DNA from: a bacterium
Lineage (GTDB): Bacteria; T1Sed10-126
Assembly: GCA_003554945.1 (NCBI GenBank)
Contig: PWHN01000050.1
Coordinates: forward strand, 19,272 to 83,271
Direction of reading: 5' to 3'
Length of the DNA stretch: 64,000 bases
The notes under the pieces were generated by a model. It saw nothing but the letters and a program-made list of their open reading frames with translations, was not told the DNA's origin and made no database searches. Positions 4,588-43,872 of the stretch are shown piece after piece. Within the stretch, counting starts at the first letter, position 1, and every line of letters starts with the position of its first letter. Both the position numbers and the translations under genes were made by a program.

Positions 4588-4593
4588 CTTTCT

Positions 4594-4726
4594 GTAACTA
4601 CTCCTCTATCCCCTCTCCCCTGGAGGGAAAGGGCCAGGGTGAGGGGGAAAAAGGTCTTGAAAACCGTTTTTCACCCCCCTTTGCGTTTCCCCCCTTCAAG
4701 GGGGGAAAGATAAGGTGAGTAGTTAC
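4594..4726. repeat. 133-nt palindromic repeat element inside the spc operon, in the rplE-rpsN spacer
   Basis: Flanked by perfect 10-bp terminal inverted repeats, GTAACTACTC and GAGTAGTTAC. It contains the R1 core TCCCCTCTCCCCTGGAGGGAAAGGGCCAGGGTGAGGGGGA (4609-4648) and the R2 hairpin CCCCCCTTCAAGGGGGG (4672-4715). Both cores recur elsewhere in the window. Confidence 0.6.
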
Positions 4727-4755
4727 ACCTTTCTTAAGTAGAGAACGTATAACTT

Positions 4756-23693: not shown

Positions 23694-24089
23694 TTACTTA
23701 AGTTCAACCGTGGCGCCGGCGGCCTCAAGCTGTTCTTTAATTTCTTCGGCGTCCTCGCGAGCGAGACTTTCTTTAACTGCGTTGGGGGCTTCCTCAACGA
23801 GCTGTTTAGCCTCTTTTAGGCCGAGGTCCGTAATAGCACGCACCTCTTTAATAACCTGGATCTTGCTGTCGCCAAAATCAGCGAGAACGACGTCAACCAT
23901 GCTGTCACCTTCGTCTTCTTCTTCGTCGGCTCCAGCCGCTGGTACCGCTGCAACAGCACCTGCCATCGCTCCGGCTTCAACATCAAATCGTTCTTCAATT
24001 TCTTCCACGAGTTCAGACAGTTCTAAAACTGTCATCTCCTCAATAGAATCAATAATTTCATCTTTACTCAACGTAGCCATCAAACTCAC
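23694..24089 (-). CDS. rplL: 50S ribosomal protein L7/L12
   Basis: 131 aa with an Ala-rich hinge and an acidic C-terminal domain. Confidence 0.93.
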
Positions 24090-24883
24090 TCCTCCTGATC
24101 TTCTTTTTGATTTTTAACTTGGTTCAACAGATTAGTCAATTTAACTATCGGATTCTTCAAATATTGTGCAAGCTTCTGTAGCGGTGAATTAAGCCCCATT
24201 GCCACACTGGTTAGCAGTTCGTGGCGCGAAGGCAACTCCGCTATGCGTTCCATCTCTTCAGCATCAAAAAACTCCCGATCAATAATACCCGCCTTCAACT
24301 GAGGATTTTCATACTCTTCCTGAAACTCAACAATGACTTCAGCCATGCGACTCAAATTGCTATCCCCAAAAACAATCGCTGTATTTCCTTTCAGAAGAGC
24401 ATCCACCTTATCCAGTAGACCGTTGCCTTTTTCCGAAAGCTCCAAACTTTCAGCAGCACTGCCACCGGCAAGTTCTTCAGCCGAGTCCAGTATTTTCTCA
24501 GCCATGGCGGGCCCAATCCCGGAGATATCCTGAAGTCCTTCCTGGCCGGTTTCTATTACCTCAGCAACGCTTTCCAGACCGGCTTCTGCAAGTGTTTCGG
24601 CCTTGGACGGGCCAACCCCCTCGAGGTCAGTTAACTCCGGCGTATCTTCCGATTCGTCAGCAGCGGCCTCCACCGGATCCGAATCGCCCACCTGTGCGAA
24701 AGCCCGGCGGGCCAGCCGGTTTTTTACAACGTGAAAACTGGCATCGTTTTCATAAAGTTCCCGCCTCAGCTTCTCCGTCTCTTCGACCGTCATCCCTCTA
24801 AAATTGGTAAAAACCATGTAACTATTATCTTCAATCAGGGTCTGTAGTTCTTCAACCCATTCAACTTTTCGCGCTTTTACCAT
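24086..24883 (-). CDS. rplJ: 50S ribosomal protein L10 with a ~98-aa internal (HhH)2-like insertion
   Basis: The L10 core is recognisable on both sides (…[16 protein letters not shown] / [23 protein letters not shown]…). Inserted residues ~67-164 contain [19 protein letters not shown] and [16 protein letters not shown]. Confidence 0.85.
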
Positions 24884-41096: not shown

Positions 41097-41243
41097 TTTG
41101 ACACACAGCGCCTCCTAACGATTTCGGCATTGCCGGGCTTGACCCGGCAATCCATCTTGAAGTTACCATAGATTCCAGATCTTTGGGCACTACGTGCCCT
41201 TGTCCGGAATGACGTCGGTGGTTCTGTTTGACACACAGCGCCC
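41097..41243. repeat. 17-bp direct repeats flanking a ~110-nt palindromic element, with a candidate rplU promoter
   Basis: TTTGACACACAGCGCC occurs at 41097 and again at 41226. Between the copies lie the hairpins CATTGCCGGG-CTTGA-CCCGGCAATCC and GGGCAC-TAC-GTGCCC, plus TCCGGAATGACG. The second copy supplies TTGACA, then 17 nt, then TAAACT, about 55 nt upstream of rplU. Confidence 0.45.
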
Positions 41244-41309
41244 CTTATAGTAAACTTTTTGGCCCTATATTATTAATCGACTGAATTTATCACAGGAGGT
41301 ATTATTAAA

Positions 41310-41624
41310 ATGTATGCTATCTTTGCCCTTGGAGAACACCAATATCGGGCTGAACCTGATTCGGAAGTGACGGTTTTCCGCCGTGACGTCGAAGAAGGCG
41401 AAGAGATCGAACTGGAGGACGTGCTTCTCGTAAAAGACGGCGATGACGTAAAAATTGGCACCCCAAAAGTAGAGGGGGCCACTATTACAGCTCGAGTTGA
41501 GGACCACTTCCGCGGCGACAAAATAACTGTTTTTAACTACAAACGTCGCGAGGGTCGGCGGCGCAAACTGGGCCATCGTGACGACTTAACCCGTCTGCGA
41601 ATTGAGTCCATTAACCTGAACTGA
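41310..41624 (+). CDS. rplU: 50S ribosomal protein L21
   Basis: MYAIFALGEHQYRAE...HRDDLTRLRIESI matches the L21 signature. Confidence 0.93.
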   Translation: MYAIFALGEHQYRAEPDSEVTVFRRDVEEGEEIELEDVLLVKDGDDVKIGTPKVEGATITARVEDHFRGDKITVFNYKRREGRRRKLGHRDDLTRLRIESINLN

Positions 41625-41975
41625 ATGATTGAAGTCAGGCTTTACCGCCACCCGCAACATGGATTGACCGGGATGGAAGCTGTCGGGCACGCAGGCGAAG
41701 AACCACGTGGATCTAATCTGCTCTGCGCTGCCTTTTCCACACTGTTCGAGGTTCTTGTCGCCGGGGCAAATAATTTGCCTGCGGAAAGCGTTGACTACGT
41801 TCGAGACGAGCAAAAAAACCACTGGAAACTAGTCGCTGAGCCGGATTTGATCCCCTCAACTGACTGGGGAGCGTTCAGACACACTTTGAAATCGACTGCA
41901 TCCGTCGCCGGACAGATCGTTGATTCTAACCCCGACCGGTGCCAGTTAACCCAGCTTACTCATAAAACAAATTAA
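41625..41975 (+). CDS. prp: ribosomal-processing cysteine protease Prp homologue (DUF464/YsxB)
   Basis: 116 aa sitting between rplU and rpmA. It has the Prp His and Cys motifs, AVGHAG and NLLCAAFSTL (compare Staphylococcus aureus GHADHG...DIVCAGASAV). Confidence 0.75.
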   Translation: MIEVRLYRHPQHGLTGMEAVGHAGEEPRGSNLLCAAFSTLFEVLVAGANNLPAESVDYVRDEQKNHWKLVAEPDLIPSTDWGAFRHTLKSTASVAGQIVDSNPDRCQLTQLTHKTN

Positions 41976-42008
41976 AAACAGAATCTTCCCCCGGTTTTGT
42001 CATTGTAT

Positions 42009-42057
42009 CCCCCCCCTTTGTCTTTCCCCCCTTGAAGGGGGGAAAAAGAAAGGGGGG
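42009..42057. repeat. R2 G/C-run long hairpin, second copy
   Basis: C8-TTTGTCTTT-C6-TTGAA-G6-AAAAAGAAA-G6 folds as a ~21-bp imperfect stem. It is related to 4672-4715 (C6TTTGCGTTTC6-TTCAA-G6AAAGATAAGG). Confidence 0.55.
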
Positions 42058-42226
42058 ATGACGCTGCAAGATTCTGATTAAAAATCGCTGGTAATTCTTG
42101 TACAAACAACTTATAATATTGTTGAGTCATCTGAAAAAATTCCTTCTGCATTGAAGGAGAGAGTAATTTTTTTGGAGTGGACTCATTATTGTTTCTGAAG
42201 ATTACTGAATTTCAGGAGGTAAACCA

Positions 42227-42532
42227 ATGGCAACAAAAGCAAGTCAAGGCTCGACTCAAAACGGTCGCGATAGCATATCTAAACGTCTTGGCCCGAAAAA
42301 ATTTGACCAGGAACTGGTTCGTGCGGGAAATATTCTTATTCGCCAGCGCGGTACCAAATACCATCCGGGTATTAATGTCGGTCGTGGCAGCGATGACACG
42401 CTGTTTGCTAAACAGGACGGCTATGTCTTCTACAAGCGACAGGGGAACGGACGCAAAGTAGTGAGCGTGCTTTCCAAAAAAGAAATAGAACACCTGGAAA
42501 AGGTGAACAAAACGGCCAAAGCTGCCGTTTGA
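42227..42532 (+). CDS. rpmA: 50S ribosomal protein L27, no N-terminal propeptide
   Basis: [22 protein letters not shown]...[16 protein letters not shown]. The RBS AGGAGG is present, and an in-frame TGA lies 7 codons upstream, so no extension is possible. Confidence 0.93.
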
Positions 42533-42603: not shown

Positions 42604-43872
42604 ATGGCCAGACCGTTTGTTGATGAGGTTTTGCTAACGGTTCGGGGTGGTGATGGCGGTGACGGCTGCACCTCTTTTGAGCGCGAACCCCACAACTCAA
42701 AAGCCGGACCCGACGGCGGTGACGGCGGCACCGGTGGCGACGTTATTCTCCAGGCCGTCGAACAGGTAAATACCCTTTCCCACCTTAATCAGAAAAGTCT
42801 GCTCACTGCTGAAGACGGAAGTCGCGGCGGTTCAAACCGTAAGCGAGGTGCTTCCGGTGACGATCTCACAATTAAAGTTCCCACCGGTACTTCTGTCTAC
42901 AACCAAAAAAATAATAAATTGCTCGGCGAGCTGTTAGAAGATGGCCAAACTCTGAAAGTTGCCAGTGGCGGTAGCGGGGGGCGCGGCAACCGCTGCTTTC
43001 GCTCCAGCCGCAATCAAGCCCCCAGATTTCATGAATTCGGCGAAACCGGCGAAGAGAAAGATATACGTATAGAGTTGAAGCTTATCGCTGATGTTGGTAT
43101 TGTGGGACTGCCCAACGCCGGCAAGTCTACGCTACTTGCCCATCTTACTAATGCTCACCCACGGGTTGCCGGACATCCCTTTACTACGATTAATCCAAAC
43201 CTTGGTGTGCTGGAAGAGGACTTTCGCCGCCTCACACTCTGTGACCTGCCCGGCCTGGTTAACGACGCTCATAAAGGAGCCGGTTTAGGCATCCAGTTCC
43301 TTCGTCACATTGACCGAACCGGTGTCCTGCTGCACCTCGTTGACATATCATCACGCACCCCGGTTGACGACTACAGGGTTGTCCGAGAAGAACTTCAAGC
43401 TTATAATCCTCAGTTGGCAGAAAAAACTGCGCTCGTGGTCTGCAATAAAATCGACCTCGTCGACTCCGGTGAAGTTGAAATTTTCGCCGAGGATATTGCT
43501 CCGGCTCCTGGACCGGTCATCGGCATTTCGGCACAGGAGAGAACGAACCTTGATCTTCTCCGGCAGCAGCTCTGGAAGCTGGCGGAGTCAGCTAAAACAG
43601 ATGAAACCGACGACTCCAAAACAGAAGAAAAAGTAGTTCGACTTGAACAGCAGGAACCAATTAAGGTTATTCCTCACGGCGATAGATACCTGCTTAGCGG
43701 CGACCGGGTTAGCGAACTTGTTCAACGCTTCGATTTGAACAACCACGAGGCGCTCAGCTATGTGCGCAGACGATTGCTGGAGATTGGGCTTCATAAAAAA
43801 TTGGAAAAAGCCGGCTGCCGGCCGGGCGACACCGTTCAAATTGGTAACAGGGAGTTTGAATACACAGGATGA
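42604..43872 (+). CDS. obg: GTPase Obg
   Basis: An Obg fold with Gly-rich N-terminus (DGGDGGTGGDV), the G domain (GLPNAGKST) and a C-terminal OCT domain. Confidence 0.93.
   Translation: MARPFVDEVLLTVRGGDGGDGCTSFEREPHNSKAGPDGGDGGTGGDVILQAVEQVNTLSHLNQKSLLTAEDGSRGGSNRKRGASGDDLTIKVPTGTSVYNQKNNKLLGELLEDGQTLKVASGGSGGRGNRCFRSSRNQAPRFHEFGETGEEKDIRIELKLIADVGIVGLPNAGKSTLLAHLTNAHPRVAGHPFTTINPNLGVLEEDFRRLTLCDLPGLVNDAHKGAGLGIQFLRHIDRTGVLLHLVDISSRTPVDDYRVVREELQAYNPQLAEKTALVVCNKIDLVDSGEVEIFAEDIAPAPGPVIGISAQERTNLDLLRQQLWKLAESAKTDETDDSKTEEKVVRLEQQEPIKVIPHGDRYLLSGDRVSELVQRFDLNNHEALSYVRRRLLEIGLHKKLEKAGCRPGDTVQIGNREFEYTG

What the first reader, a model, noticed from the sequence alone, without database searches (positions are those of the whole stretch)
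41625..42532. Prp protease homologue retained although L27 has no cleavable N-terminal extension; a 250-nt structured spacer separates prp and rpmA
The ORF between rplU and rpmA carries the Prp/DUF464 His and Cys motifs (AVGHAG...LLCAAFSTL). In described Prp systems L27 is made with a short N-terminal propeptide that Prp removes to expose the mature end (ASKKG... in Staphylococcus aureus). Here L27 starts [16 protein letters not shown] directly behind an AGGAGG RBS, and an in-frame TGA at 42206 excludes any extension. The encoded protein is already 'mature', so Prp lacks its canonical substrate. Either Prp has another target or it is a relic. In addition, prp and rpmA, normally abutting, are separated by 250 nt. 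That spacer holds a ~21-bp G/C-run hairpin (42009-42057) and a perfect TATAAT at 42112-42117, which suggests rpmA has acquired its own promoter and is uncoupled from rplU-prp.
Basis: partly seen in the sequence, partly recalled or inferred. Interest (0 to 1): 0.58.

Follow-up and report, generated by a model that had tools for sequence, protein, structure and literature searches.

The report
Prp protease gene beside short L27
An uncultured bacterial lineage keeps an intact Prp-type cysteine protease gene between the L21 and L27 ribosomal protein genes although its L27 has no propeptide to remove; this arrangement is already described in spirochaetes and Thermotoga, so it is a further example of an open puzzle and not a new one.

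Summary
The ORF at 41625-41975 is a true Prp-family protein: it scores above the Pfam PF04327 cut-off, its AlphaFold model (pLDDT 94.7) matches only Prp crystal structures, and His22 and Cys34 are in place. L27 (42227-42532) starts [10 protein letters not shown] behind AGGAGG, and the in-frame TGA at 42206 rules out an extension.

"Prp without long L27" is already published for spirochaetes, Thermotoga maritima and Mycoplasma pneumoniae (PMC9405229).

In eight related loci plus the window, Prp stays intact (111-117 aa) with the dyad and an SaPrp-length His-Cys loop. This holds even though Prp identity falls to about 30% while L27 stays at 56-75%. It is therefore not a relic.

A prp-rpmA spacer occurs throughout the clade (48-251 nt). 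The window's extra length is a 98-nt palindromic element. Its core recurs at 4686-4708, between rplE and rpsN, and is absent from relatives, so it is a dispersed repeat and not a conserved part of the locus.

The TATAAT box lies in a CTGG-N19-TTATAATA motif found at the same place in two other genomes. This gives moderate support for a separate rpmA promoter.

The substrate is unknown and cannot be tested here.

Verdict: a new member of a known kind, of modest interest.

The parts
41310..41624 (+). rplU (ribosomal protein L21, 104 aa)
   Evidence: PF00829 at 110.9 bits and TIGR00061 at 101.6 bits.
41625..41975 (+). prp: Prp-family (Pfam PF04327; MEROPS C108 per PMC9405229) cysteine protease homologue, 116 aa. 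The ATG directly follows the rplU stop (TGAATG) and there is no Shine-Dalgarno sequence. His22 codon 41688-41690; Cys34 codon 41724-41726.
   Evidence: PF04327 at 38.6 bits against a cut-off of 27. AF2 model pLDDT 94.7. The 14 Foldseek PDB hits at E <= 0.001 are all Prp structures: 2idl, 2g0i/j, 7jvs, 7kld, 1s12, 4peo. His22 and Cys34 are the only invariant columns among 66 homologues. The 116-aa start is supported by the conserved MIEV/MTEV N-terminus.
41979..42076 (.). 98-nt palindromic element. Outer stem 41979-41987 / 42068-42076; inner C-run/G-run hairpin 42011-42033 / 42035-42057. It is one copy of a repeat also present at 4673-4715.
   Evidence: The core TTTCCCCCCTTNAAGGGGGGAAA occurs twice in the window (0.00 expected) and is absent from 14 related loci. 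No U-tract follows the stem, so it is not a canonical intrinsic terminator.
42088..42118 (+). Promoter-like motif CTGGTAA-N-TTATAATA (-10 TATAAT at 42112-42117; -35-like TGGTAA at 42089-42094, 17-nt spacing).
   Evidence: It occurs once in the window (0.00 expected) and at the equivalent spot in the prp-rpmA spacers of L003 and L006/L007. TTATAATA is the only 8-mer shared by the three spacers, which happens in 0.3% of shuffles. The pattern was derived post hoc.
42206..42208 (+). In-frame TGA, 7 codons upstream of the rpmA start.
42214..42219 (+). AGGAGG Shine-Dalgarno sequence of rpmA.
   Evidence: GGAGG lies at the same distance in 8 of the 9 clade loci; L013 has GGGAGG.
42227..42532 (+). rpmA (L27, 101 aa). 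N-terminus of canonical length ([16 protein letters not shown]) with no propeptide, plus a C-terminal extension of about 16 aa.
   Evidence: PF01016 at 115.5 bits and TIGR00062 at 116.6 bits. Alignment A4.
42604..43872 (+). obg (GTPase ObgE), downstream neighbour; then proB, proA, nadD.
4673..4715 (.). Second copy of the hairpin core, in the rplE-rpsN spacer of the spc operon.

Best explanation
The ORF is a genuine, functionally maintained Prp-family cysteine protease in an uncultured diderm lineage. NCBI labels the relatives only as 'bacterium', and the nearest MAG, CSSed10_354m, was tentatively placed near Ca. Acetothermia / Ca. Lindowbacteria. Throughout this lineage L27 is synthesised in its mature form. 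The locus is therefore another case of the published 'Prp without long L27' configuration.

Shown: the fold, the catalytic His22/Cys34 dyad, the hinge glycines G21 and G29, and Ser38 (Thr in one member). A His-Cys loop of 11 residues, the same length as in S. aureus Prp, is kept in all nine clade loci. Prp otherwise diverges far faster than its neighbours.

Inferred: Prp is still an active protease. Its substrate is either another protein with a hydrophobic-Phe|Ala-type N-terminal propeptide (FlhB has been proposed in the literature for other phyla), or it acts on or with L27 and the late 50S particle without cleaving L27.

Expression (inferred from sequence): prp has no Shine-Dalgarno sequence and starts 0-12 nt after rplU in most loci, so it is probably translated by coupling to L21. 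rpmA sits behind a clade-wide spacer of 48-251 nt with a strong GGAGG and, in at least three genomes, a conserved CTGG-N19-TTATAATA box. It is therefore likely expressed at least partly from its own promoter.

The window's spacer is the longest because a 98-nt palindromic repeat inserted just after the prp stop, upstream of that box.
For: Family membership: Pfam; AF2 model pLDDT 94.7; Foldseek top hits are exclusively Prp structures, TM 0.6-0.8; a profile of 66 homologues hits 2idl at 1.9e-23 and 4peo/7kld at 6e-21, with GHA and C aligned.

Conservation: in alignment A2, G21, H22, G29, C34, A35, F41, L44, L88 and C106 are invariant at 28-36% identity to the window protein (65% for P0002). Every member has 11 residues between His and Cys.

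Neighbour conservation: Obg 63% and L27 71% between the window and L003, against 28% for Prp.

Short L27: it is short in all nine clade loci, with GGAGG (GGGAGG in L013) directly upstream and, in the eight loci tabulated, in-frame stops 5-43 codons upstream. The positive control L016 shows the canonical MIRVNLQLF|ASKK with prp overlapping rpmA.

Literature: PMC9405229 sections 3.1, 3.2, 3.4.3 and Tables 2-3.

Public annotation: NCBI names two relatives 'ribosomal-processing cysteine protease Prp [bacterium]'.

Spacer and promoter. Repeat.
Against: No biochemical evidence of activity is available. Asp31, which is essential in SaPrp (D31A is inactive), is Asn in the window protein and Asn or Ser in four other clade members listed (P0002, P0007, P0008, P0009), as well as in L013. 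The NCBIfam Prp equivalog models score far below their cut-offs (17.6 bits or less against 133-171). No candidate substrate was found in the 64-kb window, and FlhB could not be looked for in the genome. For the promoter, the -35 match is only 3 of 6, window-versus-L003 similarity over 40 nt is not above shuffles (129 of 300), and the motif was defined post hoc and is seen in only 3 of the 9 clade loci.
Confidence: 0.7

Rival explanations
1. Prp here is an evolutionary relic: a decaying gene left over after L27 lost its propeptide.
For: Prp diverges much faster than the flanking genes: 28% identity against 63-71% between the window and L003. Asp31 is replaced by Asn. Prp has no Shine-Dalgarno sequence.
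Against: All nine clade loci have intact ORFs of 111-117 aa, with an invariant dyad, hinge glycines and loop length. The predicted fold is highly confident. Rapid divergence is also reported for Prps that do cleave L27.
Confidence: 0.05
2. Prp acts here only as a non-proteolytic L27 or late-50S assembly chaperone.
For: A chaperone role has been proposed for SaPrp: pre-cleaved L27 gives growth defects, and a Prp/L27 complex is found on pre-50S particles (PMC9405229 section 3.3.2). The gene keeps its position between rplU and rpmA in every locus.
Against: A pure binding role would not require invariant His22, Cys34, Gly21 and Gly29. In S. aureus, tight Prp-L27 binding is attributed to the cleavage sequence, which is absent here. 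rpmA appears uncoupled from prp.
Confidence: 0.2
3. L27 does carry an extension, made from an upstream non-canonical start or by recoding.
For: None was found.
Against: In-frame stops lie 5-43 codons upstream in the eight clade loci tabulated. Only L005 and L010 have an upstream in-frame TTG, and the peptides it would add (LKNSKFRRQNP, LLSYSTLFPYLGGIT) show no LQ[FL]F|A-type motif. GGAGG lies 5-8 nt before the annotated start. The peptide upstream in the window (ISGGKP) has no cleavage-site character.
Confidence: 0.02
4. The spacer has no promoter. rplU-prp-rpmA is one transcript, and the spacer is only tolerated intergenic DNA plus an inserted repeat that may act as an RNA processing or stability hairpin.
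For: TATAAT alone is expected by chance in DNA of 31% G+C. The -35 match is weak. The motif is absent from six clade loci. The repeat's second copy also lies inside an operon, between rplE and rpsN, where co-transcription is expected.
Against: CTGG-N19-TTATAATA is in the same place in three diverged genomes. L003 and L006 share a 40-nt block with 26 identities, reached by 0 of 300 shuffles. Most other spacers also contain -35/-10-like pairs.
Confidence: 0.35

Closest known systems
Prp of Staphylococcus aureus / Streptococcus (PF04327; PDB 4PEO, 7KLD, 7JVS, 2IDL, 2G0I)
   Same: Same fold. His22/Cys34 dyad at the same residue numbers. Gly21 and Gly29 hinges, Ser38, and an 11-residue His-Cys clamp loop. 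The gene lies between rplU and rpmA.
   Different: No L27 propeptide substrate. About 20% sequence identity. Asp31 is Asn. A clade-specific invariant Cys106 is present. prp is separated from rpmA by 251 nt instead of abutting or overlapping it. Equivalog HMMs are not reached.
Prps of bacteria without long L27: spirochaetes, Thermotoga maritima TM1457 (PDB 1S12), Mycoplasma pneumoniae (PMC9405229 sections 3.2 and 3.4.3)
   Same: Prp is present and L27 is made mature. Some of those L27s have similar N-termini (Leptospira MATKK, Borrelia MATSK; Table 2). The substrate is unknown.
   Different: Those Prps are reported to tend towards shorter flexible loops (TmPrp Gly15-Asp19). This clade keeps the full-length loop. 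The lineage is different: an unclassified diderm MAG clade outside the six phyla listed. Whether an FlhB with an N-terminal extension exists here is unknown.
REP-like (repetitive extragenic palindromic) elements
   Same: A short palindromic G/C-rich hairpin present in more than one intergenic site inside operons, and not conserved in orthologous spacers of relatives.
   Different: Only two copies could be seen in 64 kb, with no sequence relation to described REP families tested here. Rfam gives only sub-threshold microRNA-hairpin noise.

Membership tests
Prp / Peptidase_Prp (Pfam PF04327; MEROPS C108 per PMC9405229) | Sequence match to the family profile above the curated cut-off | tested here: met
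   38.6 bits against a gathering score of 27, but only profile positions 1-64 of 90. A profile of 66 homologues hits the PDB Prps at 1e-18 to 1e-23 over the full length.
Prp / Peptidase_Prp (Pfam PF04327; MEROPS C108 per PMC9405229) | Prp fold | tested here: met
   AF2 pLDDT 94.7, pTM 0.86. Foldseek PDB hits 1-14 are all Prp-family chains, probability 1.00, TM 0.60-0.83; the next hit has E = 0.1.
Prp / Peptidase_Prp (Pfam PF04327; MEROPS C108 per PMC9405229) | Catalytic His/Cys dyad (SaPrp His22, Cys34) | tested here: met
   H22 and C34 are the only invariant columns in the 66-sequence alignment, and they align to GHA / C of 4PEO, 2IDL and 2G0I.
Prp / Peptidase_Prp (Pfam PF04327; MEROPS C108 per PMC9405229) | Residues whose mutation inactivates SaPrp: Gly21, Asp31, Ser38 (plus the Gly29 hinge) | tested here: inconclusive
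   G21, G29 and S38 are present. Position 31 is Asn in the window protein (Asp in 4 of the 9 sequences in alignment A2, Asn or Ser in the rest).
Prp / Peptidase_Prp (Pfam PF04327; MEROPS C108 per PMC9405229) | Gene located between rplU and rpmA | tested here: met
   the same in all related loci.
Prp / Peptidase_Prp (Pfam PF04327; MEROPS C108 per PMC9405229) | Proteolytic activity | not testable with these tools
   Needs enzyme assays.
Canonical L27-processing Prp system (Firmicutes type) | L27 with an N-terminal extension ending in a hydrophobic-(F/L)|A(S/H)KK cleavage site | tested here: not met
   L27 starts [10 protein letters not shown], with an in-frame TGA 7 codons upstream. The same holds in the eight other clade loci. 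Control L016 shows MIRVNLQLF|ASKK.
Canonical L27-processing Prp system (Firmicutes type) | NCBIfam 'ribosomal-processing cysteine protease Prp' equivalog score | tested here: not met
   Best score 17.6 bits against cut-offs of 133-171. NCBI nevertheless names two clade relatives Prp.
Published class 'Prp without long L27' (spirochaete / Thermotoga type) | Prp gene present and L27 of mature length | tested here: met
   definition from PMC9405229 section 3.2.
Published class 'Prp without long L27' (spirochaete / Thermotoga type) | Tendency to a shortened flexible loop L2 and a more neutral pI | tested here: not met
   The loop has 11 residues, as in SaPrp, in all members. pI is 5.8 (clade range 4.6-7.0), so only slightly less acidic than SaPrp at 4.3. 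The paper describes this as a tendency, not a strict criterion.
Published class 'Prp without long L27' (spirochaete / Thermotoga type) | FlhB with an N-terminal extension carrying a Prp-like site (proposed substrate) | not testable with these tools
   No flhB was found among the 42 window ORFs scanned against Pfam; rpoB, rpoC, fusA, tuf and the smaller ORFs were not scanned.
Intrinsic (Rho-independent) terminator, for the hairpin | G+C-rich stem-loop immediately followed by a U-tract | tested here: not met
   The stem is present but is followed by ATGACGCTGC and, after the outer stem, ATTAAAAATC. The terminator scan did not report it.
Sigma-70-type promoter, for 42089-42117 | -35 and -10 hexamers with 16-18 nt spacing, and a mapped start site | tested here: inconclusive
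   The -10 is 6 of 6, the -35 TGGTAA is 3 of 6, and the spacing is 17 nt. The position is conserved in L003 and L006. The transcription start is not testable here.

The most novel reading that the evidence does not exclude
In this deep, uncultured diderm lineage Prp is an active protease that keeps its full substrate-clamp loop and has gained an invariant extra cysteine (Cys106). It is translationally coupled to L21 but transcriptionally uncoupled from L27. It would serve a conserved substrate that is neither the L27 propeptide nor necessarily FlhB, for example another ribosome-assembly or envelope protein. If so, the ancestral or general role of the Prp family is broader than L27 maturation.
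Probability: 0.3. Interest if true: 0.5.

Novelty: new member of a known kind. Interest (0 to 1): 0.3.

Why it matters
What Prp does in bacteria whose L27 needs no processing is an acknowledged open question, and FlhB cleavage is only a hypothesis. This clade adds a clean comparative data set of nine loci. The catalytic machinery and the full clamp loop are under clear constraint while the canonical substrate is absent, and the lineage lies outside the phyla surveyed so far. If the corresponding MAGs lack flagellar genes, the FlhB hypothesis could not be general. If they have an FlhB with a Phe|Ala N-terminal site, the hypothesis would gain an independent case. The work also shows that the eye-catching hairpin is a dispersed repeat and not part of the system.

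Tried and rejected
- Rfam at gathering and permissive thresholds gave nothing beyond tRNAs and sub-threshold microRNA-like hits on the hairpin.
- A genome-contig scan with the 3-sequence Prp alignment found no confirmed relative. The Obg query then gave L003.
A hand-made L27 N-terminus pattern returned only 2 contigs.
- The contig of the closest relative, P0002 (67% identity), is not on record, so no near-neighbour spacer or dN/dS comparison was possible.
- Single-sequence phmmer against the PDB gave only a weak hit (E = 0.016). The profile and fold searches were needed.
- A conserved structured rpmA leader was looked for. Leader folds are not consistently better than shuffles (z from +0.7 to -2.8), and the L003 spacer has z = +0.27.
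- A search for Prp-site-like N-terminal motifs in all window ORFs found only two hits, both in spurious ORFs.
- Wall et al. 2015 and 2017 (PMC4418427, PMC5397363) are not held, so the literature basis is the 2022 review.
- The hairpin as an intrinsic terminator was rejected for lack of a U-tract.
- The taxonomy of the window could not be resolved beyond 'unclassified bacterium'.

Full report
**1. Observation**

The region reads as the first-stage reader described it.
- rplU is 41310-41624.
- An ORF of 116 aa (41625-41975) starts at the ATG that directly follows the rplU stop (TGAATG).
- The spacer is 251 nt (41976-42226).
- AGGAGG is at 42214-42219.
- rpmA is 42227-42532 and encodes [16 protein letters not shown]...
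- obg starts at 42604.
- The in-frame TGA at 42206-42208 lies 7 codons upstream of the rpmA start, with no alternative start codon in between.
- The hairpin arms are 42011-42033 and 42035-42057, 23 nt each and 91% complementary.
- TATAAT is at 42112-42117.

**2. Is the ORF a Prp?**

Yes.
- Pfam PF04327 (Peptidase_Prp) scores 38.6 bits against a cut-off of 27, although only over the N-terminal two thirds of the profile.
- The narrow NCBIfam equivalog models are far from being reached.
- An exhaustive profile search found 733 relatives at E <= 1e-3, but only 13 at E <= 1e-10. The protein therefore belongs to a small, divergent branch.
- In an alignment of 66 homologues, the only invariant columns are His22 and Cys34. 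Gly21, Gly29, Ala35 and Ser38 are nearly invariant.
- That profile matches the solved Prps over their full length: 2IDL at 1.9e-23, 2G0I at 2.4e-22, 4PEO/7KLD at 6e-21, 7JVS at 2e-18 and TM1457/1S12 at 2e-8. The GHA and C motifs are aligned.
- The AlphaFold model is very confident (pLDDT 94.7, pTM 0.86).
- The 14 Foldseek PDB hits at E <= 0.001 are exclusively Prp-family chains, and the next hit has E = 0.1.
- Of the residues shown by mutagenesis to be essential in S. aureus Prp (G21, D31, S38; PMC9405229 section 3.4.1), G21 and S38 are present and D31 is Asn here.

**3. Is L27 really short, and is this peculiar to the window?**

I collected related loci with genomic context.
- L003: soda-lake MAG CSSed10_354m, Obg 63% identical.
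- L005, L006/L007, L008/L009, L010, L011, L012.
- L013: a marine metagenome contig.

In every one of them Prp is an intact ORF of 111-117 aa. L27 begins M(A/S)TK(A/M)SQG(S/A)..., with GGAGG (GGGAGG in L013) just upstream. In the eight clade loci tabulated an in-frame stop lies 5-43 codons upstream.

Two more distant Prp neighbours serve as controls.
- L016 has the canonical system: L27 MIRVNLQLF|ASKKG, with prp overlapping rpmA by 4 nt.
- L001 and L015 have short MAHKKGQG L27s with prp overlapping rpmA or 20 nt away.

So the method does detect a propeptide when one exists.

**4. Relic or functional?**

Prp identity between the window and L003 is 28%, while L27 is 71% and Obg 63% identical. Despite this rapid divergence, G21, H22, G29, C34, A35, F41, L44, L88 and a clade-specific C106 are invariant in the nine-sequence subfamily alignment.

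The His-Cys loop is 11 residues in every member, which is the length found in S. aureus Prp. No locus has a disrupted ORF.

This is the signature of a maintained active site, not of decay. The relic option is rejected.

**5. What is already known**

The review by Hotinger et al. 2022 (PMC9405229) states that all species with long L27 encode Prp, but that "the inverse is not true". Its section 3.2, "Prps of Bacteria without an L27 N-Terminal Extension", lists all spirochaetes and some Tenericutes and Thermotogae.

Table 2 of the review shows short L27 in Leptospira (MATKK), Borrelia (MATSK), T. maritima and M. pneumoniae. FlhB, with an N-terminal extension ending in a Phe|Ala-like site, is proposed as the alternative substrate. 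A chaperone role for L27 is also discussed.

NCBI already names two clade relatives "ribosomal-processing cysteine protease Prp [bacterium]".

What this clade adds:
- It lies outside the six phyla surveyed in that review. The nearest MAG is an unclassified bacterium that its authors tentatively put near Ca. Acetothermia, with closest match Ca. Lindowbacteria.
- It is a diderm: the window has two LptF/LptG-family genes, a SurA-like gene and a large outer-membrane-protein-like ORF. That ORF has no Pfam hit here; its counterpart in L008 carries only a faint LptD_N hit.
- It keeps the full-length clamp loop, whereas non-L27-cleaving Prps were reported to tend towards short loops.

**6. The spacer**

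A prp-rpmA spacer is a clade character: 251, 178, 172, 129, 126, 118, 87, 75 and 48 nt. The window's is the longest.

The extra length is explained by a 98-nt palindromic element (41979-42076) directly after the prp stop. It accounts for the strong fold of the spacer (-82.6 kcal/mol, z = -4.3).

The core of the element, TTTCCCCCCTTNAAGGGGGGAAA, occurs a second time at 4686-4708 (0.00 expected by chance). That site lies between rplE (L5) and rpsN (S14) of the spc operon, another junction that is normally tight.

The core is absent from all 14 related loci, and the L003 spacer is unstructured (z = +0.27). No U-tract follows the stem, so it is not a canonical terminator.

I conclude that the hairpin is a dispersed, REP-like repeat of this genome. 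It may act as an RNA stability or processing hairpin, but it is not a conserved component of the rplU-prp-rpmA locus.

**7. A promoter for rpmA?**

TATAAT alone is not significant in a stretch of 31% G+C, and the -35 match is weak (TGGTAA, 3 of 6).

However, the box lies within CTGG-N19-TTATAATA. That motif occurs once in the window (0.00 expected) and at the equivalent place in the spacers of L003 and L006/L007.
- TTATAATA is the only 8-mer shared by the three spacers, which happens in 0.3% of shuffles.
- L003 and L006 share a 40-nt block around it with 26 identities, reached by 0 of 300 shuffles.
- Window-versus-L003 similarity alone is not above chance.
- The pattern was defined post hoc.

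Most of the other clade spacers contain their own -35/-10-like pairs.

In addition, prp has no Shine-Dalgarno sequence and starts 0-12 nt after rplU in most loci, while rpmA always has a GGAGG-type Shine-Dalgarno sequence.

I therefore rate an internal rpmA promoter as plausible, at about 0.6, but unproven. The putative leaders show no consistent structure.

**8. Mechanism**

Shown:
- a Prp-fold protein with a conserved catalytic dyad, hinge glycines and clamp loop;
- no L27 propeptide;
- the gene order rplU-prp-(spacer)-rpmA-obg.

Inferred:
- Prp is an active cysteine protease whose substrate is not the L27 N-terminus;
- it is made in step with L21 by translational coupling;
- L27 is expressed independently.

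The substrate cannot be identified from 64 kb. No ORF in the window has a Prp-site-like N-terminus, and no flagellar gene was found among the 42 window ORFs scanned against Pfam.

**9. Verdict**

The case is a new member of a known kind: Prp retained without long L27. The "structured spacer" is explained mainly by an inserted repeat, and a separate rpmA promoter has modest support. Interest is modest (0.3). The value of the finding is as a comparative test case for the unresolved question of what Prp does when L27 needs no processing.

Noticed in passing
window 4588-4755 (core 4686-4708): The rplE (L5, 4756-5307, minus strand) to rpsN (S14 type Z, 4393-~4587) junction of the spc operon has a spacer of about 170 nt. 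It is packed with C-run/G-run hairpins (-73 kcal/mol, z = -3.85) and includes the second copy of the hairpin core seen in the prp-rpmA spacer. Both copies in the window sit between co-transcribed ribosomal protein genes.
   Followed up: partly
window 41097-41117 and 41227-41247: A direct repeat TTTGACACACAGCGCC(T/C)C.. lies 130 nt apart upstream of rplU, and each copy carries a TTGACA. The second copy is followed after 17 nt by TAAACT, the likely rplU promoter. TAAACTTTT is also found upstream of rplU in L003, and small hairpins lie between the repeats.
   Followed up: partly
window 42227-42532; L003, L005, L006, L008, L010-L013: L27 of this clade has an unusual N-terminal tail: (A/S)TK(A/M)SQG where most bacteria have AHKKGGG, so His3 and Lys5 are replaced. 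It also has a conserved C-terminal extension of 15-22 aa (VLTExxIExLE...) that is absent from E. coli L27 and from L001.
   Followed up: partly
window 41940-41942 (Cys106 of Prp): A second cysteine in a [HY]P[ED]xC motif, at the start of the last beta-strand, is invariant in the nine-member Prp subfamily. Canonical Prps have a hydrophobic residue there (YPxxV). Its role is unknown.
   Followed up: no
window 41625-41975 vs P0001: The public gene call for this protein (NCBI/JGI/GEM, P0001) starts at Met17 (100 aa) and so omits the first beta-strand. Homologues and the structural model support the 116-aa start at 41625, as in JGI's P0004.
   Followed up: yes
P0020: One hit of the exhaustive search is a 2167-aa protein with six separate Prp-like stretches, a giant multi-Prp-domain protein. 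P0077 (251 aa, two stretches) and P0143 (338 aa) are also longer than usual.
   Followed up: no
window 24086-24883 (minus strand): This 265-aa ORF matches ribosomal protein L10 only over residues 1-68 (profile 1-68 of 100) and then carries helix-hairpin-helix (HHH_5) matches at 83-136. It may be an unusual L10 architecture or an ORF-calling or frameshift artefact.
   Followed up: no
L003 4455-4485: A second exact match to CTGG-N19-TTATAATA lies inside the obg coding region of L003. It is probably a chance match.
   Followed up: no
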